Assembly: GCA_022764045.1 (NCBI GenBank)
Contig: JALERU010000042.1
Coordinates: 20,805 to 84,804, forward strand
Reading direction: 5' to 3'
From: Clostridiales bacterium
Lineage (GTDB): Bacteria > Bacillota > Clostridia > Oscillospirales > Oscillospiraceae
Length of the DNA stretch: 64,000 nt
Below are positions 38,328-44,322 of this stretch, piece by piece (positions within the stretch are counted from its first letter, which is position 1; every line of letters starts with the position of its first letter). The notes beneath the pieces were generated by a model, which was given only the letters and a program-made list of their open reading frames with translations, did no database searches and had not been told where the DNA came from. The translations under genes were made by a program, and so were the position numbers.

Positions 38328-39236
38328 TCACCCCGCAGGGCCCTCCCAGCCGTCCTTTTCCTGGATGGCCTCCATCAGCTTTTCCAGGTATTTTTCCGCC
38401 GCCCTGGAAAAGCCGCGGTGTTTCTTCCACACCACGTTCATCTCCGCCCTCGGCGCGCCCTGGAGGGCCTTGAAGCACAACGCGCTGTCCTCCGAAACCC
38501 GGACAATGTTGCGCAGGCACACCGCGTATCCCAGGTGATCCTCCACCATCAGGGAGCCGTTGAACAAAAGGTTATACGTCCCGGAGATCCAGAGCTCCCC
38601 GGCCGCCGCCCCCAGCTGCTCTTTCAGAAAGGAGGCGGCGTGGACCTGCCTGGACAGGATCAGGGGCAAGCCCTTCAGGTCCGACAGGGCCACCGTCTCC
38701 TTTCCCGCCAGAGGGCTGTCCTTTCGCATGAGCACCCCCCAGGTGTCCTGATAAGGGATTCGGAGGCTGTGATACTTTGTCCCGTCTGCCCCATCAAAGA
38801 GCAGGCCAAAATCCACCAATCCACGGTCCAGCTGCTCATACACGTCAATGCTGTCCCCGCTGGAGACATGGAAGCGGACGCCGGGGTGCTCCCGCTGGAG
38901 CAGGTGGGCAGCCCGGGTCAGATAGCGCATCCCCACCGTCTCCCCCGCGCCGATGTACACATCCCCGGCCACCAGATCCTCCGACCGGGCAATCTCCCGC
39001 TCCGTTCTGTGGACCAGCTCCAAAATCTCCTCGGCCCGCTTCCGCAGGACCCGCCCCTCTTCGGTCAGGGTGATCTTCCGTTTCCCCCGGAGGAATAACG
39101 GTTTCCCCAGGGACGTCTCCAAATCCTTTAGCTGCCTGGAAAGGGTGGGCTGGGACAGGTGCAAAAACTGCGCCGCCCCCGAGATGCTCTCCTCTCTGGC
39201 CACCGCAAGAAAATATTCCAACACTCTCAGTTCCAC
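38328..39236 (-). CDS. LysR-family regulator
   Basis: MELRVLEYFLAVAREESISGAAQFLHLSQPTLSRQ; divergent from the redox cluster. Confidence 0.95.
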   Translation of the reverse strand: MELRVLEYFLAVAREESISGAAQFLHLSQPTLSRQLKDLETSLGKPLFLRGKRKITLTEEGRVLRKRAEEILELVHRTEREIARSEDLVAGDVYIGAGETVGMRYLTRAAHLLQREHPGVRFHVSSGDSIDVYEQLDRGLVDFGLLFDGADGTKYHSLRIPYQDTWGVLMRKDSPLAGKETVALSDLKGLPLILSRQVHAASFLKEQLGAAAGELWISGTYNLLFNGSLMVEDHLGYAVCLRNIVRVSEDSALCFKALQGAPRAEMNVVWKKHRGFSRAAEKYLEKLMEAIQEKDGWEGPAG

Positions 39237-39380
39237 AGGGCTTCCCTCCTGATTTTGGCAAATTCTATATCAGTATACCACAATCTTATTATACCTTAAA
39301 GCTATGGTAAATTATTTATTATAAGTATTTGCTATTTTTATTCCATTCTGTATAATCAAAAGCAAAAAGGAGGGATTCCC

Positions 39381-39950
39381 TTGGAACTGTCGGAATATTT
39401 AACCTATGTCAAAACCGGGCAGGTTATAAAAGCAGGCTCCCCGGCCCATCAGCTCATGCACAGGCTGAGCCAGGAAGCCCTTCAGATCACCGCCCAAATG
39501 AACACGGGGTATCACACCCCGGAGGAGCTGGCCCAGCTCTTTTCCGCCCTGACCGGCCGCCCCACCCCGGAGGGCTTCGCCCTTTTCCCGCCCTTCCATA
39601 CGGACTGCGGCAAGAACATCCACCTGGGCAAGCATGTCTTTCTCAACGCCTCCTGCCACTTTCAGGACCAGGGCGGCATTTACATCGGCGACCATGTGCT
39701 CATCGGCCACGGCGTGACCCTGGCCACCCTGAACCACTGTCAAGACCCCTTGGACAGGGGCTCCATGGTGCCCAAGGCCATCCACATCGGTGACCGCGTG
39801 TGGATCGGCTCCCAGGCCACCATCCTCCCGGGGGTTACCATCGGCCACGGCGCCATCGTGGCCGCAGGGGCGGTGGTGACGGCGGACGTGGCCCCCAACA
39901 CCATCGTCGGCGGCGTCCCGGCAAAATACATCAAGCACGTGGAAGCATGA
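39381..39950 (+). CDS. Sugar O-acetyltransferase (hexapeptide repeat)
   Basis: [35 protein letters not shown]; TTG start. Confidence 0.9.
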
Positions 39951-39988
39951 CGAAACACCACAGGATATTTTTAGAGAGGAGATCGTTT

Positions 39989-40984
39989 ATGGAAAACACA
40001 TTGCATCTGTCTGCGGCGTGGGACAAGACCTTCCCGAAAAGCCCCCAGGTTGACCACCGGAAGGTCACCTTCCACAACCGCTACGGGATTTTACTGGCTG
40101 CCGACCTCTATACGCCGAAAAACGCAACGGGCCGGCTGCCCGCCCTGGCCGTCTGCGGCCCCTTTGGCGCAGTAAAGGAACAGGCCTCCGGGCTGTATGC
40201 CCAAACCATGGCGGAGCGGGGCTTCCTCGCCCTGGCCTTCGATCCCTCCTACACCGGCGAAAGCGGCGGCCAGCCCAGATACATGGCCTCCCCGGATATC
40301 AACACCGAGGATTTCCAGGCCGCTGTGGATTTTCTCTCTGTCCAGGACAACGCAGACCCGGAAAAAATCGGGATCATCGGCATCTGCGGTTGGGGCGGCC
40401 TGGCCCTGAACGCCGCAGCCCTTGACACTCGAATTAAGGCAACGGTGGCCGCCACCATGTATGACATGAGCCGGGTCAACGCCAAGGGCTACTTTGACGC
40501 CGAGGACAGCGAAGCCGCCCGCTATGAAAAGCGCAAAGCCCTCAATGTCCAAAGAACCAAAGAATATCGGGAGGGCGTCTACCATCGCGGCGGCGGCGTG
40601 GTGGACCCGCTGCCGGAGGACGCTCCCTTTTTTGTCAAAGACTACTATGACTACTATAAGACCAGCCGGGGCTATCACAAGAACTCCCTGAACTCCAACG
40701 AGGGCTGGAACGTCACCGGCTGCATGTCCTTTCTGAACCAGCCCATTTTGCACTACAGCAACGAGATCCGCTCCGCCGTGCTGGTGATGCACGGGGACGC
40801 GGCCCATTCCTGCTACTTTGGCAAAGACGCCTATGCCGACATGGCAAAAGACAGCGCCTACGCCGGAAACAAAGAGCTGCTGCTCATCCCCGGCGCCTCC
40901 CACACTGACCTGTATGACGGCGGCGGAAAGAACGCCATTCCTTTTGATAAACTGGCGGAGTTTATCCGGGAGGCCATGGGGTAA
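39989..40984 (+). CDS. Alpha/beta hydrolase
   Basis: GPFGAVKEQ, FDPSYTGESGG, GICGWGG nucleophile elbow, GASHTDLYD. Confidence 0.88.
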   Translation: MENTLHLSAAWDKTFPKSPQVDHRKVTFHNRYGILLAADLYTPKNATGRLPALAVCGPFGAVKEQASGLYAQTMAERGFLALAFDPSYTGESGGQPRYMASPDINTEDFQAAVDFLSVQDNADPEKIGIIGICGWGGLALNAAALDTRIKATVAATMYDMSRVNAKGYFDAEDSEAARYEKRKALNVQRTKEYREGVYHRGGGVVDPLPEDAPFFVKDYYDYYKTSRGYHKNSLNSNEGWNVTGCMSFLNQPILHYSNEIRSAVLVMHGDAAHSCYFGKDAYADMAKDSAYAGNKELLLIPGASHTDLYDGGGKNAIPFDKLAEFIREAMG

Positions 40985-41023
40985 CTGCCAGGCAGAGAGA
41001 CTGAACAAAGGAGGATCTTACCC

Positions 41024-41650
41024 ATAAAAGTTTTACTGTTCAATGGAAGTCCCAAGCGCACCAACGGCTGCACTTACCTGGCCCTTTCTGAAATCGCCAA
41101 AACACTGGAGTCAGATGGGATCGAAACGGAAATTCTCCAGCTGGGGGGGCAGCCGGTGTGGGACTGCACCGGCTGCGGCCACTGCCAGAAAACCGGCCGG
41201 TGCATCTTTGATCAGGATATGGTCAACGACTGGCTCGAGAAGGCCCGGGAAGCAGACGGCTTTGTTTTCGGATCCCCGGTGTACTTCGCCCACCCCTCTG
41301 GCCACCTGCTGTCCGTCATGGACCGGATGTTTATGGCAGGCGGGGATGCTTTTGCCCACAAACCCACCGCCGCAGTGGTCACCGCCCGCCGGGCCGGGAC
41401 CACCGCCTCCCTGGATGTCATCCAGAAGCACTTCACTGACGCCCAGATGCCCATCGTGTCCTCCACCTATTGGAACATGGTGTTCGGCCCTGCCCCGGAA
41501 CAGCTGGAGCGGGACCAGGAGGGTCTTCAGACCATGCGGAACCTGGGTCGGAACATGTCGTGGCTGCTCCGGTGCATCCAGACTGGAAGAGACCAGGGCA
41601 TAACGCCTCACCCAGCGGAGACGCGGCACTGGACCAGCTTTCACCAGTGA
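41024..41650 (+). CDS. Flavodoxin-fold FMN reductase / iron-sulfur flavoprotein family; apparent start codon is ATA
   Basis: Frame reads (I)KVLLFNGSPK...CTGCGHCQKTGRC...GSPVY from 41024, 9 nt after GGAGG. Confidence 0.8.
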   Translation: MKVLLFNGSPKRTNGCTYLALSEIAKTLESDGIETEILQLGGQPVWDCTGCGHCQKTGRCIFDQDMVNDWLEKAREADGFVFGSPVYFAHPSGHLLSVMDRMFMAGGDAFAHKPTAAVVTARRAGTTASLDVIQKHFTDAQMPIVSSTYWNMVFGPAPEQLERDQEGLQTMRNLGRNMSWLLRCIQTGRDQGITPHPAETRHWTSFHQ

Positions 41651-41719
41651 GAGGCAGACGCACCCCGGAAAGTATCCCTCCATCAAAATCATTTGACCTG
41701 TCCGAAAGGAGGAACCCTG

Positions 41720-44059
41720 ATGAAGAAAAAACTGTTGACTTTGTTATTGGCTGTCTGCACCGTGCTCTCCCTGACCATGACAGCCTGCGCGGCTCAGGAA
41801 GAGCCGGAACCCTCGCCGCTCTCCACAGCGTCTCAGGTGCTGCCCTTTACGGACATTCCGACAGACGCTTGGTACGCTGATGAAGTGCAATACTGCTATG
41901 AGCACGGAATTTTTGCCGGCACCAGCAGCACCACCTTTTCCCCAGAGGACACCCTGACCCGGGCACAGCTGGCCACCGTCCTCTACCGGATGGCAGGAAG
42001 GCCTGCTATAAACAACGAGAATCTGGGATACCCCTTCACCGATGTACCCGGAGACAGCTGGTATACTGACGGCGTTTACTGGGCCCGTCTGAAGGGGCTT
42101 ATGGGCGGCTATGGGAACAATGTATTTGGACCCGACGACCCTGTGACCCGGGAACAGGCGGTGACCATCCTGTGGCGGCAGGCTGGCTCCCCCGCTGCTT
42201 CTGCCGGGAATTTTTCGGATGGTGACCACCTTGCAACCTGGGCCGAGACCGCCGCTGGCTGGGCCCTGGGGGTGGGCCTGCTCGCCGGCTGGGCAGAGGG
42301 AACCTTCCAGCCTCGCACCAGCCTCACTCGGGCCGAGGCCACCGTGTTGATGGCCCGTTACCAACAGCGTGCCGCAACCGGGACAGAGGACGGCAGCCGC
42401 ATTCTGGTGGTCTACTTCTCCGCCACCGGAACCACCCGTCCCCTGGCGGAGTACGCGGCGGATATCCTGAATGCCGACCTCTATGAGATCGTCCCGGCAG
42501 AGCCCTATACCGCCGCCGACCTGACCTATTACACCGACTGCCGGGCCGACCGGGAACAAAACGATCCCTCTGCCCGCCCTGCCATCTATGGCACCGTGGA
42601 GAATATGACGCAGTACGACGTGATTCTCCTGGGCTACCCCATCTGGCACGGGCAGCCGCCCCGGATCGTCAGCACCTTCCTGGAGTCCTATGATTTCTCC
42701 GGAAAAACCATCGTGCCTTTTTGCACCAGTGGCAGCAGTGGGTTCAGCGACAGGGGGCTGAGTGCCCTGACCTCCGGCGCCAACTGGCTCACCGGGTGTC
42801 GGTTTGCCGGCGGCGCCGGCCGGGAGGCCGTGGCGGAGTGGCTGGACAGCCTTGATTTGCCGCGGCAGACCGACGGGGATCTGCTGGTCTCCTTTCATGG
42901 TCACACCTATGCCGCCACCCTGACGGACGACGCCTCGGGCCGGGCCTTCGCCGCTCTGCTGGCGGCCCGAGGCGGCTCGCTCACTGTAGAGGCCCGGGAC
43001 TACGGCGCCTTTGAAAAGGTGGGGGCCCTGCCTGCGTCCCTGCCCCGCAGTGACCAGACGATCACCACCGCCCCCGGTGATCTGATCCTCTATCAAGGGG
43101 ACCAAATCGCCCTTTACTACGCTCCCAACACCTGGAATTTCACCCGCTTGGGCCGTCTGCAGGGGGATCTGTCCGCCCTGCGGGATCACTTGGGCAGCGG
43201 CAGTGTATCCATCACCTACTCCCTGGCAGCGGCCCAAACGGCCCCGGCCTTTGACCTTGAAACAGGCACTGTCACCCTCAACAGCGGCTATGAGATGCCC
43301 ATCATGGGCTTGGGCACCTATTCCCTCAGCGATGAGGCATGTTATAACTCGGTCACCGCCCTGCTGGAGAAGGGCGGACGGCTCATTGACACTGCCTATA
43401 TGTATCACAACGAAGCTGCCGTAGGCCGGGCGGTACGGGACAGCGATATGCCACGGGAAGAAATTTTTGTGATCACCAAGCTCTACCCCAGTCAGTTTGG
43501 AAACGCTGAAGCCGCCATCGACGAGGCGCTGGAGAAGCTGGATATTGGCTACATCGACCTGATGCTGCTCCATCACCCCGGCGCTGGGGACGTAGAGGCC
43601 TACCGCGCCATGGAACGGGCTGTGGCGGATGGCAAGCTCCGCTCCATCGGACTTTCCAACTGGTACGTGAAGGAATTGGAGGAATTTCTGCCCCAGGTGA
43701 GCATCCCCCCCGCCCTGGTACAGAACGAGATCCACCCATATTATCAGGAACAAGAGGTCGTACCCTATATCCAGAGCCTGGGCATCGTCACCCAGGGATG
43801 GTATCCCTTTGGTGGGCGGGGGCACACAGCGGAGCTGCTGGGGGATCCGGTGATTGCCGACATTGCCAAAAACCGCGGCGTCACCCCCGCCCAAGTGATC
43901 CTGCGGTGGAATCTCCAGCGGGGCGTGGTGGTGATTCCCGGCTCCAGCAACCCGGAGCATATCCGGGAGAATCTGGATCTGTTCAACTTCGCCCTGACAG
44001 AGCGGGAGATGGCGCAGATCGCCGCCCTGGATCGAAATGAGAAGCATGACTGGTACTAA
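41720..44059 (+). CDS. Secreted fusion: SLH x3 + flavodoxin + cyclophilin-like domain + aldo/keto reductase
   Basis: Signal peptide; FTDIPTDAWY/FTDVPGDSWY SLH; YFSATGTT and FCTSGSS flavodoxin; DYGAFEKVG..L..PGDLILYQG; GLGTY, IDTAYMY, TKLYP, LLHHP. Confidence 0.88.
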   Translation: MKKKLLTLLLAVCTVLSLTMTACAAQEEPEPSPLSTASQVLPFTDIPTDAWYADEVQYCYEHGIFAGTSSTTFSPEDTLTRAQLATVLYRMAGRPAINNENLGYPFTDVPGDSWYTDGVYWARLKGLMGGYGNNVFGPDDPVTREQAVTILWRQAGSPAASAGNFSDGDHLATWAETAAGWALGVGLLAGWAEGTFQPRTSLTRAEATVLMARYQQRAATGTEDGSRILVVYFSATGTTRPLAEYAADILNADLYEIVPAEPYTAADLTYYTDCRADREQNDPSARPAIYGTVENMTQYDVILLGYPIWHGQPPRIVSTFLESYDFSGKTIVPFCTSGSSGFSDRGLSALTSGANWLTGCRFAGGAGREAVAEWLDSLDLPRQTDGDLLVSFHGHTYAATLTDDASGRAFAALLAARGGSLTVEARDYGAFEKVGALPASLPRSDQTITTAPGDLILYQGDQIALYYAPNTWNFTRLGRLQGDLSALRDHLGSGSVSITYSLAAAQTAPAFDLETGTVTLNSGYEMPIMGLGTYSLSDEACYNSVTALLEKGGRLIDTAYMYHNEAAVGRAVRDSDMPREEIFVITKLYPSQFGNAEAAIDEALEKLDIGYIDLMLLHHPGAGDVEAYRAMERAVADGKLRSIGLSNWYVKELEEFLPQVSIPPALVQNEIHPYYQEQEVVPYIQSLGIVTQGWYPFGGRGHTAELLGDPVIADIAKNRGVTPAQVILRWNLQRGVVVIPGSSNPEHIRENLDLFNFALTEREMAQIAALDRNEKHDWY

Positions 44060-44294
44060 TTGGCGCAGTGACGGCAGCCCGTCTGCCGAACCCGGAACAG
44101 GCTCTCCGGGCGGTGGGTATTGCCCCGCCGCTCCGCCCTAGATACTTTTGCGCAGGAAGGATATGGTCTCATCTTGTTACGTTGCTGTCCGCAGCTTCAA
44201 CCCTCCCATGATAAGGCCGTATCCTTTCTCTTTTTTCACCGGCTGTCCAAGCTGTATTTTAATCCTGCCAAAAGCAAAAGAGAGAACAAAACGC

Positions 44295-44322
44295 TTGACA
44301 AACGGCGATTTTTCGATATAAT
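44295..44322 (+). promoter_or_regulatory. Sigma-A promoter of rpsF
   Basis: TTGACA-16-TATAAT. Confidence 0.75.

What the first reader, a model, noticed from the sequence alone, without database searches (positions are those of the whole stretch)
41720..44059. Cell-surface-anchored four-module fusion: SLH x3, flavodoxin, cyclophilin-like, aldo/keto reductase
Seen: one uninterrupted ~779-aa frame with a signal peptide, three SLH repeats, a flavodoxin (YFSATGTT...GYPIW...FCTSGSS), a cyclophilin-like barrel (DYGAFEKVG...PGDLILYQG) and a complete AKR with D/Y/K/H catalytic residues (IDTA, MYHNE, TKL, LLHHP). Established: AKRs are NAD(P)H-dependent and normally cytoplasmic; these three domain types often occur as separate genes in LysR/AraC-controlled clusters of gut anaerobes. 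Inference: a wall-tethered redox assembly in which the flavodoxin could feed electrons to an extracellular reductase or detoxification step, which raises the question of the cofactor supply outside the cell.
Basis: partly seen in the sequence, partly recalled or inferred. Interest (0 to 1): 0.75.

Follow-up and report, generated by a model that had tools for sequence, protein, structure and literature searches.

The report
Wall-anchored exported aldo-keto reductase fusion
A pig-gut Clostridia bacterium tethers to its cell surface a real four-part protein (wall anchor, flavodoxin, cyclophilin-like barrel, aldo-keto reductase) that belongs to a large, unstudied family of exported reductases whose normal cofactor, NAD(P)H, is not expected outside the cell.

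Summary
Window 41720-44059 (+) is one uninterrupted 779-aa gene with a lipoprotein signal (Cys23), three SLH repeats, Flavodoxin_4, Cyclophil_like2 and a DkgA/YvgN-type aldo-keto reductase (AKR), all above Pfam cut-offs. It is not an assembly artefact: identical or near-identical copies span every domain junction in independent metagenomes.

The fusion is not unique. It is one variant of a widespread but patchy clade of exported AKR lipoproteins in gut Clostridia and Erysipelotrichia. Nine architectures occur, including AKR alone, Fld-AKR, Cyc2-AKR, and forms with or without SLH, and they have been shuffled repeatedly. They usually sit in a LysR cassette with an acetyltransferase, an alpha/beta-hydrolase and an Isf-like FMN reductase.

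The catalytic tetrad, nicotinamide contacts and FMN loops are invariant. The 2'-phosphate site carries G741/H747, the same residues as the engineered K232G/R238H mutant (PDB 1M9H). I found no TatC, no DUF4405 cytochrome and no ApbE flavinylation motif, so export is by Sec and the electron and cofactor supply remains unexplained.

I found no paper describing exported AKRs. The nearest precedent is the flavinylated extracytosolic Flavodoxin_4 class (mSystems 2024).

This scan had already flagged the same family on other DNA several times, without follow-up.

The parts
38328..39236 (-). LysR-type regulator, divergent from the operon
   Evidence: Pfam HTH_1 plus LysR_substrate. A LysR homolog is present in 54 of 80 related loci.
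39329..39356 (+). Promoter-like site (TTGCTA-16-TATAAT) in the LysR-divergent region; probable operon promoter
   Evidence: Consensus scan, 10 of 12 matches. No comparable site lies directly upstream of the fusion gene. Consensus match only.
39381..39950 (+). Hexapeptide-repeat (Maa-like) O-acetyltransferase, cytoplasmic
   Evidence: Pfam Hexapep. Homolog in 36 of 80 related loci.
39989..40984 (+). Alpha/beta-hydrolase (DLH / Peptidase_S15-like), no signal peptide
   Evidence: Pfam. Gene call of 331 aa in independent assemblies. Homolog in 29 of 80 loci.
41024..41650 (+). Isf-like FMN reductase with a CX2CX2CX5C motif; apparent ATA start codon
   Evidence: The FMN_red profile matches from position 1 only when the gene is read from ATA 41024. 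ATA is conserved in three other assemblies. Homolog in 30 of 80 loci.
41720..41788 (+). Lipoprotein signal peptide with lipobox L-T-M-T-A-C23
   Evidence: By my reading of the listed N-termini, a Cys ends the hydrophobic segment in all but about three of 120 homologs, and it is present in at least 60 of 79 related loci. Lgt and LspA are in the genome. There is no RR motif and no TatC was found.
41840..42364 (+). Three SLH repeats (residues 41-215), cell-wall anchor
   Evidence: Pfam SLH, 3 stretches, E 3.9e-35. The genome has 117 SLH repeat matches and a PS_pyruv_trans (CsaB-type) gene.
42398..42850 (+). Flavodoxin_4 domain (residues 227-377), predicted to bind FMN non-covalently
   Evidence: Pfam 2e-43. 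Matches PDB 4J8P, 4ICI and 3KLB at E 1e-35 to 1e-39, and aligns without gaps to 3KLB through the beta1/alpha1 region where flavinylated members carry an insertion. FMN loops are invariant in 120 homologs. No [S/T]GA[S/T] motif.
42890..43213 (+). Cyclophil_like2 beta-barrel (residues 391-498), function unknown
   Evidence: Pfam 2.2e-18. AlphaFold pLDDT 95.5. Foldseek finds TM1367 (1ZX8), AF2241 (2NNZ) and the KslB/McbB barrel at TM 0.64-0.69, E about 1e-3. A profile search found no solved relative by sequence.
43268..44059 (+). DkgA/YvgN-type aldo-keto reductase domain (residues 517-779) plus stop codon
   Evidence: Pfam 2.8e-47. PDB 1VP5, 4FZI and YvgN at E 1e-53 to 1e-57. D557, Y562, K587, H618, S646-N647, Q668 and the motif IPG741SSNPxH747I are invariant in 120 homologs.
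44240..44254 (+). Terminator-like hairpin after the fusion gene, ahead of the rpsF promoter
   Evidence: Consensus scan. Consensus match only.

Best explanation
The gene encodes a surface-displayed oxidoreductase.

Export and anchoring. The protein is exported unfolded through Sec and lipidated on Cys23 by Lgt/LspA. Its three SLH repeats additionally hold it on the pyruvylated wall polymer. This is shown at sequence level only.

Domains. The outer part carries a non-covalent FMN flavodoxin (Flavodoxin_4), a cyclophilin-like barrel, and a catalytically intact DkgA/YvgN-type aldo-keto reductase (AKR).

Operon and family. It is the last gene of a four-gene LysR-controlled operon (acetyltransferase, alpha/beta-hydrolase, Isf-like FMN reductase). 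It is one architecture of a large, uncharacterised clade of exported AKR lipoproteins of gut Clostridia.

Inferred mechanism:
- The AKR reduces a carbonyl (or oxidises an alcohol) of an exogenous dietary or xenobiotic compound at the cell surface, and the cytoplasmic enzymes of the same regulon handle the compound inside.
- The nicotinamide site is of the NADH-tolerant type (G741/H747) and must be loaded outside the cell.
- The fused flavodoxin is the likeliest partner to re-reduce or re-oxidise that cofactor, or to exchange electrons with soluble flavins or quinones.
- The Cyc2 barrel is an accessory substrate-binding or adaptor module.

My odds for the separate steps: export, anchoring and family membership about 0.9; catalytic competence about 0.75; the flavodoxin-to-AKR electron route about 0.3.
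For: - Architecture and motifs.
- Lipobox Cys conserved across 120 homologs and about 80 named-genome loci.
- Lgt, LspA, CsaB-type gene and 117 SLH repeats in the genome.
- No TatC.
- Catalytic tetrad, nicotinamide contacts and FMN loops invariant.
- The C-terminal cofactor segment's best match in the whole PDB is 1M9H, the K232G/R238H mutant of 1A80, aligned PGSvrrEH against PGSsnpEH: with the mutant table in PMC4580623.
- Conserved cassette of LysR, acetyltransferase, FMN_red, hydrolase and Fe-ADH.
- Fld4, Cyc2 and AKR are fused in nine architectures and two domain orders, with many switches on the AKR tree (Rosetta-stone evidence).
- Separate Fld4 lipoprotein genes lie beside standalone AKR lipoproteins in L036, L037, L052 and L082.
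- Published precedent for extracytosolic Flavodoxin_4: PMC11334425.
Against: - No source of NAD(P)H is known outside a monoderm cell.
- No membrane electron carrier recurs in 80 loci.
- No DUF4405 was found in this genome, which is 90% complete.
- At least 13 standalone exported AKRs have no Fld4 or Cyc2 gene within 6 kb, so flavodoxin is not obligatory.
- AlphaFold gives confident domains but pTM 0.53, so no fixed Fld-AKR interface.
- The G/H motif also occurs in signal-less relatives (L025, L081), so it is not an adaptation to export.
- The substrate is unknown, and no expression or localisation data exist.
Confidence: 0.55

Rival explanations
1. Bound-cofactor ('nicotinoprotein'-type) enzyme. 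The AKR holds one NAD(P) molecule that never leaves, and it catalyses a redox-neutral reaction outside the cell. That could be dismutation, isomerisation, or ping-pong transfer between two extracellular substrates, as in glucose-fructose oxidoreductase. Flavodoxin and Cyc2 would be dispensable add-ons.
For: Many exported AKRs stand alone without Fld4 or Cyc2 nearby. There is no external NAD(P)H supply and no membrane conduit in the loci. The cofactor pocket is strictly conserved. The C-terminal tail ...RNEKHDWY is invariant and the loop GGRGHT nearly so, and these could lock a cofactor in place.
Against: From my own knowledge, known exported enzymes with bound NAD(P), such as GFOR and GH109, use Tat so that the cofactor is loaded in the cytoplasm. 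Here there is no twin-arginine motif and no TatC was found. The repeated independent fusion to an FMN protein argues for a redox partner.
Confidence: 0.25
2. Non-catalytic surface module. The AKR, flavodoxin and Cyc2 domains serve as ligand-binding or sensing parts, for example in flavin capture, as a redox sensor like the Kv-beta AKRs, or as an adhesin.
For: The cofactor problem disappears. Cyc2 has no known activity. SLH display is typical of binding proteins in this genome.
Against: All four catalytic residues and the nicotinamide-contacting residues are invariant over 120 homologs with overall identities down to about 50%. This is what purifying selection on catalysis would produce. Tandem cytoplasmic and exported AKR paralogs in many loci suggest the same chemistry on both sides of the membrane.
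Confidence: 0.07
3. Artefact: mis-assembly or a frameshift error has joined separate genes, or the protein is in fact cytoplasmic.
For: The genome is a 94-contig MAG. The three catalytic domain types do occur as separate genes elsewhere.
Against: The identical 2340-nt gene was assembled independently (0-3 nt differences). Contigs from three further studies bridge all junctions without indels. Dozens of homologs at 50-57% identity have the same four-domain order. SLH repeats and a lipobox make no sense for a cytoplasmic protein.
Confidence: 0.02

Closest known systems
ApbE-flavinylated extracytosolic Flavodoxin_4 proteins with DUF4405 cytochromes (Huang et al., mSystems 2024, PMC11334425)
   Same: The same Pfam family (PF12682) is placed outside the cytoplasmic membrane of Firmicutes, including Oscillospiraceae. 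Both concern extracytosolic flavin-based redox chemistry.
   Different: Ours has no beta1/alpha1 insertion and no [S/T]GA[S/T] motif, so FMN should be bound non-covalently. No apbE lies in the operon, and no DUF4405 was found in the genome. That paper does not mention AKR, SLH or cyclophilin-like partners.
Cytoplasmic DkgA / YvgN / YtbE-type aldo-keto reductases (PDB 1VP5, 3D3F, 3F7J, 1A80, 1MZR)
   Same: About 40-45% identity over the whole barrel by inspection of the alignments, with the same D/Y/K/H tetrad and nicotinamide contacts.
   Different: - Ours is exported as a lipoprotein.
- It scores far below the DkgA and DkgB equivalog cut-offs (200 against 425, and 182 against 327).
- G and H replace the Lys and Arg that bind the 2'-phosphate.
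- The chain ends in an invariant ...NEKHDWY.
Engineered Corynebacterium 2,5-DKG reductase A carrying K232G/R238H (PDB 1M9H)
   Same: The same two residues sit at the 2'-phosphate site. It is the best PDB match for the C-terminal cofactor segment, and the mutations are listed as specificity-altering in PMC4580623.
   Different: In 1M9H the residues were engineered, and from my own knowledge the aim was to admit NADH. Here they are the natural, invariant state of a whole clade. Cofactor preference has not been measured.
Extracellular flavin-dependent reductases of Gram-positive EET (Listeria PplA/FrdA type; cited in PMC11334425 and from my own knowledge)
   Same: Surface lipoprotein reductases that act on extracellular small molecules.
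   Different: Those enzymes use covalently flavinylated FMN_bind domains and flavocytochrome-type reductases fed by Ndh2/EetAB. None contains an AKR or needs a nicotinamide cofactor outside the cell.
Tat-exported oxidoreductases with bound NAD(P), such as Zymomonas glucose-fructose oxidoreductase (own knowledge)
   Same: A nicotinamide-dependent enzyme working outside the cytoplasm.
   Different: GFOR is a Gfo/Idh/MocA-fold enzyme exported folded by Tat with NADP already bound. Ours is an AKR exported by the Sec/lipoprotein route in a genome where TatC was not found.

Membership tests
Aldo-keto reductase superfamily (PF00248) | Profile match above the gathering score across the (alpha/beta)8 barrel | tested here: met
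   161.6 bits against a cut-off of 24, covering profile positions 3-290 of 291. AlphaFold gives alternating strand/helix elements consistent with a barrel, block-mean pLDDT mostly 85-97.
Aldo-keto reductase superfamily (PF00248) | Catalytic tetrad Asp-Tyr-Lys-His | tested here: met
   D557, Y562, K587 and H618 are present and invariant in 120 of 120 homologs.
Aldo-keto reductase superfamily (PF00248) | NAD(P)H binding and turnover | not testable with these tools
   The nicotinamide contacts S646/N647/Q668/W694 are conserved, but the 2'-phosphate binders are G741/H747. Binding needs biochemistry.
DkgA / DkgB 2,5-didehydrogluconate reductase (NCBIfam equivalogs NF008598, NF008377) | Score above the equivalog cut-off | tested here: not met
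   200.4 against 425 bits, and 182.2 against 327 bits. It is related to these enzymes but not an equivalog.
Flavodoxin_4 (PF12682) | Profile match and FMN-binding loops | tested here: met
   148 bits, profile positions 1-154 of 155. The loops YFSATG[TN]T, GYPIW and FCTS[HG]SS are near-invariant. It aligns without gaps through the N-terminal FMN-binding region to the FMN-bound structure 3KLB.
ApbE-flavinylated Flavodoxin_4 class (PMC11334425) | Insertion between beta1 and alpha1 carrying an [S/T]GA[S/T] flavinylation motif | tested here: not met
   There is no insertion relative to 3KLB and no such motif anywhere in the protein.
ApbE-flavinylated Flavodoxin_4 class (PMC11334425) | Co-localised apbE and a DUF4405 cytochrome | tested here: not met
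   The only ApbE gene is on another contig (C87). DUF4405 was not found in the 90%-complete genome. Neither recurs in the 80 related loci.
SLH-anchored cell-wall proteins | Three tandem SLH repeats following an export signal | tested here: met
   Pfam SLH with 3 stretches, at residues 41-215 after the signal and linker.
SLH-anchored cell-wall proteins | Host makes the pyruvylated wall polymer (CsaB-type pyruvyl transferase) | tested here: met
   PS_pyruv_trans match at E 9e-49 in the same genome, together with 117 SLH repeat matches. Actual wall binding was not tested.
Bacterial lipoproteins (Lgt/LspA substrates) | Lipobox with an invariant Cys at the end of the hydrophobic region, and the maturation enzymes present | tested here: met
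   The LTMTA-C23 lipobox Cys is conserved in nearly all homologs. Lgt and LspA are present. Lipidation itself is not testable here.
Cyclophil_like2 (PF18050) | Profile match and cyclophilin-like barrel fold | tested here: met
   66.8 bits against a cut-off of 22.7. The model has pLDDT 95.5 and resembles TM1367 and AF2241 at TM 0.67-0.69. Prolyl-isomerase activity was not tested and is not implied.
Tat-exported cofactor-loaded oxidoreductases | Twin-arginine signal and a Tat translocase | tested here: not met
   The N-terminus is MKKKLL... with no RR. TatC was not found in the genome.

The most novel reading that the evidence does not exclude
A self-contained extracellular hydride relay. The exported AKR captures and keeps one NAD(H) molecule. 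The fused or neighbouring non-covalent FMN flavodoxin recycles that molecule and trades electrons with soluble flavins, quinones or thiols in the gut lumen. A nicotinamide-dependent enzyme family would then work outside the cell with no free NAD(P)H, no Tat export and no dedicated membrane conduit. Cyc2 would act as the substrate-presenting module.
Probability: 0.2. Interest if true: 0.85.

Novelty: new variant of a known kind. Interest (0 to 1): 0.62.

Why it matters
AKRs are textbook cytoplasmic NAD(P)H enzymes. This work shows a whole clade, with at least 564 loci among species-representative genomes, that gut Clostridia export as lipoproteins with the active site and cofactor pocket under strict conservation. 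The clade includes cultured species such as Anaerotruncus colihominis, Eisenbergiella tayi, Dielma fastidiosa, Bariatricus massiliensis and Enterocloster hominis.

That makes a sharp, testable question: how does a nicotinamide-dependent enzyme work outside a monoderm cell after Sec export?

If these proteins are active, they are candidates for surface transformation of dietary, host or drug carbonyls by gut bacteria, and they would extend the known repertoire of extracytosolic redox chemistry beyond flavinylated proteins and cytochromes. The recurrent partners (Flavodoxin_4 and Cyclophil_like2) would also gain a first functional context.

Tried and rejected
- **Complex prediction.** Complex prediction on the AKR domain (508-779) against the Fld domain (222-384) scored 0.00 and gave no verdict. 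It is evidence neither way.
- **Three-domain AlphaFold model.** pTM was 0.53, so it cannot be used to claim that the FMN and NAD(P)H sites face each other.
- **Solved relatives of Cyc2.** Sequence and profile searches of the PDB found nothing significant.
- **Literature.** Searches for SLH + AKR + flavodoxin, for lipoprotein, extracellular or periplasmic AKRs, and for the Pfam names found no description of exported AKRs. Only PMC11334425 was relevant.
- **DUF4405 conduit** (a lead from an earlier scan note). Not found in this genome and not recurrent in related loci.
- **Tat export of a cofactor-loaded enzyme.** Rejected: no RR motif and no TatC.
- **ApbE flavinylation of the Fld domain.** Rejected: no insertion and no motif.
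- **The G741/H747 motif as an adaptation to export.** Rejected, because the signal-less relatives L025 and L081 share it.
- **Assembly chimera.** Rejected.
- **Not used.** I did not run the large representative-protein search or the second and third homolog searches, because the named-genome loci already answered the architecture question.
Full report
**1.

- Window 41693..44059 (+) is a single open frame. The ATG at 41720 follows a strong RBS (gaaaggagga, 5-nt spacer) and gives a 779-aa product, P0001.
- Pfam finds three SLH repeats (E 3.9e-35), Flavodoxin_4 at 227-377 (2e-43), Cyclophil_like2 at 391-498 (2.2e-18) and Aldo_ket_red at 530-771 (2.8e-47). All are well above their gathering scores.
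- NCBIfam places the last domain nearest DkgA/DkgB but far below the equivalog cut-offs.

**2. It is not an artefact**

- The identical protein, with identical neighbours, is encoded in an NCBI MAG and two independent SRA assemblies. The 2340-nt gene differs at 0-3 positions.
- At least 19 gut metagenome runs from seven studies, mostly pig gut, hold the operon.
- Single contigs from two of those studies span 39300-44300 with only 19-22 SNPs and no indels or joints. A contig from a third study bridges 41539-43716, which covers every domain junction.

**3. The signal is a lipoprotein signal**

- The N-terminus MKKKLLTLLLAVCTVLSLTMTA-C23 ends in a lipobox. By my reading of the listed N-termini, a Cys at the end of the hydrophobic segment is kept in all but about three of 120 homologs, although the surrounding residues drift (LTMT[AS]C, LPAC, ITACG, LSACG).
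- The same holds in named genomes.
- The genome encodes Lgt and LspA.
- There is no twin-arginine motif and no TatC was found (the genome is 90% complete). Export should therefore be by Sec, with the protein unfolded and without cofactors.
- The genome has 117 SLH repeat matches, which I estimate at several dozen proteins, and a CsaB-type pyruvyl transferase. SLH anchoring is a general strategy of this organism. Neighbouring SpoVA and SpoIIE genes fit a spore-forming Clostridia.

**4. The domains look functional**

- In 120 homologs (overall identities down to about 50%) the following are invariant or nearly so:
  - the AKR tetrad D557/Y562/K587/H618;
  - the nicotinamide contacts S646-N647, Q668-N-E and W694;
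  - the flavodoxin FMN loops YFSATG[TN]T, GYPIW and FCTS[HG]SS.
- The Fld domain aligns to the FMN-bound structure 3KLB with no gap where flavinylated members carry an insertion, and the protein has no [S/T]GA[S/T] motif. It is therefore not of the ApbE-flavinylated class described in PMC11334425.
- The AKR's 2'-phosphate site reads I-P-G741-S-S-N-P-x-H747-I, invariant in the clade. The best match for this segment in the whole PDB is 1M9H. PMC4580623 lists that entry as the K232G/R238H specificity-altering mutant of 1A80. From my own knowledge, those mutations were made to admit NADH.
- Signal-less relatives share the motif, so it is a subfamily trait and not an export adaptation.
- The C-terminal tail ...RNEKHDWY is invariant and the loop GGRGHT nearly so.

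**5. The real unit is an exported AKR clade, not this one fusion**

- A homolog search gave 3468 hits from a capped candidate list. All but one of the top 120 combine SLH with the AKR, with or without Cyc2.
- A scan of species-representative genomes gave at least 564 related loci. In the best 80, the same AKR clade (63-85% identity) occurs as:
  - a standalone lipoprotein of 320-345 aa;
  - Fld-AKR of 480-520 aa;
  - Cyc2-AKR of 440-530 aa;
  - Fld-Cyc2-AKR, Cyc2-Fld-AKR, and the SLH-bearing forms.
- These loci come from Oscillospiraceae, Lachnospiraceae, Christensenella, Dielma, Eisenbergiella, Enterocloster and Bariatricus.
- On a tree of 182 AKR domains the nine architectures switch many times. 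P0001's AKR nests among standalone AKR lipoproteins rather than with the main SLH-Fld-Cyc2-AKR group, so the modules have been recombined repeatedly. Caveat: this is a FastTree on about 265 residues, rooted on two signal-less members, and many supports are moderate.
- The clade is patchy. Members at 68% identity or more were found in about 8 of 301 sampled genomes of the order, and in neither of two same-genus genomes.
- It is the only DkgA-like AKR found in this genome with this query.

**6. Genomic context**

- The fusion is the last of four co-oriented genes downstream of a divergent LysR: a hexapeptide acetyltransferase, an alpha/beta-hydrolase, an Isf-like FMN reductase and the fusion.
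- The only good promoter-like site lies in the LysR-divergent region, and a terminator-like hairpin follows the fusion gene.
- Across 80 loci the recurrent neighbours are LysR (54), acetyltransferase (36), FMN_red (30), hydrolase (29) and Fe-ADH (21). No membrane electron carrier recurs.
- Many loci carry a signal-less AKR paralog (266-286 aa) next to the exported one. This suggests the same chemistry on both sides of the membrane.

**7. Structure**

- AlphaFold of residues 218-779 gives confident domains (mean pLDDT 85.7) but pTM 0.53, so no fixed packing.
- Cyc2 alone folds at pLDDT 95.5. It resembles TM1367 (1ZX8), AF2241 (2NNZ) and the barrel of the KslB/McbB Pictet-Spenglerases at TM 0.64-0.69 and E about 1e-3. 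That is a fold assignment only.

**8. Mechanism**

- *Shown at sequence level:* export, double anchoring, intact active sites and operon context.
- *Inferred:* a surface carbonyl/alcohol oxidoreductase acting on an exogenous compound under LysR control. It would have an NADH-tolerant cofactor site loaded outside the cell, with flavodoxin as the probable redox partner.
- *The weak point:* the electron and cofactor supply. This genome has no DUF4405 and no Tat. Many standalone exported AKRs lack a nearby flavodoxin.
- *Main rival:* a non-exchanging bound-cofactor enzyme doing redox-neutral chemistry.

**9. Comparison with what is known, and novelty**

- I found no paper on exported AKRs.
- The nearest described system is the flavinylated extracytosolic Flavodoxin_4 with DUF4405 (PMC11334425). 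This protein fails both defining features of that system.
- I rate it a new variant of a known kind. The enzyme families are ordinary, but the compartment, partners and cofactor problem are not.
- The scan had already noted the same family in other genomes: a lipoprotein AKR, a Fld-AKR lipoprotein and an exported Cyc2-AKR operon. None of these has been followed up. Those notes are leads, not independent evidence.

Noticed in passing
window 41024-41650 (+): The Isf-like FMN reductase just upstream appears to start with ATA, 7 nt after the RBS aaaggagga. The Pfam profile matches from position 1 only with that start. The next canonical start (GTG 41156) would remove the flavin P-loop. ATA is conserved in three other assemblies, and one gene call (208 aa) uses it.
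   Followed up: partly
L025, L028, L036, L038, L042, L043, L045, L052, L053, L079, L081: Many related loci carry two AKR paralogs side by side: one signal-less (266-286 aa) and one exported lipoprotein (about 320-380 aa). This suggests matched intracellular and extracellular versions of one activity.
   Followed up: no
window 44033-44056 (residues 772-779) and 43814-43831 (residues 699-704): The C-terminal tail ...RNEKHDWY is invariant and the loop G-R-G-H-T nearly so across the aligned homologs. These are clade signatures absent from the aligned PDB AKRs (for example 1VP5) and may shape the substrate or cofactor site.
   Followed up: no
L002 1063-2001 (-) = G000:C45: The genome's only other Flavodoxin_4 is a cytoplasmic Fld4-cupin fusion (312 aa, no signal). 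It lies beside another LysR regulator and a 241-aa ORF that looks RibD_C-like to me (not scanned).
   Followed up: no
window 44295-44322 (+): A perfect sigma-70 consensus (TTGACA-16-TATAAT, 12 of 12) lies upstream of rpsF-ssb-rpsR. It marks a separate transcription unit immediately after the fusion gene.
   Followed up: no
G043, G300 (same genus) against G000: The two sampled same-genus genomes lack any match to this AKR clade, and the clade is patchy across the order. The LysR cassette therefore looks like an accessory, probably horizontally moved, block inserted upstream of rpsF.
   Followed up: partly
L017, L027, L066, L073: Some related loci also hold small signal-less Flavodoxin_4 genes (153-193 aa) next to the exported AKR fusions, so cytoplasmic and exported flavodoxins co-exist in one cassette.
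   Followed up: no
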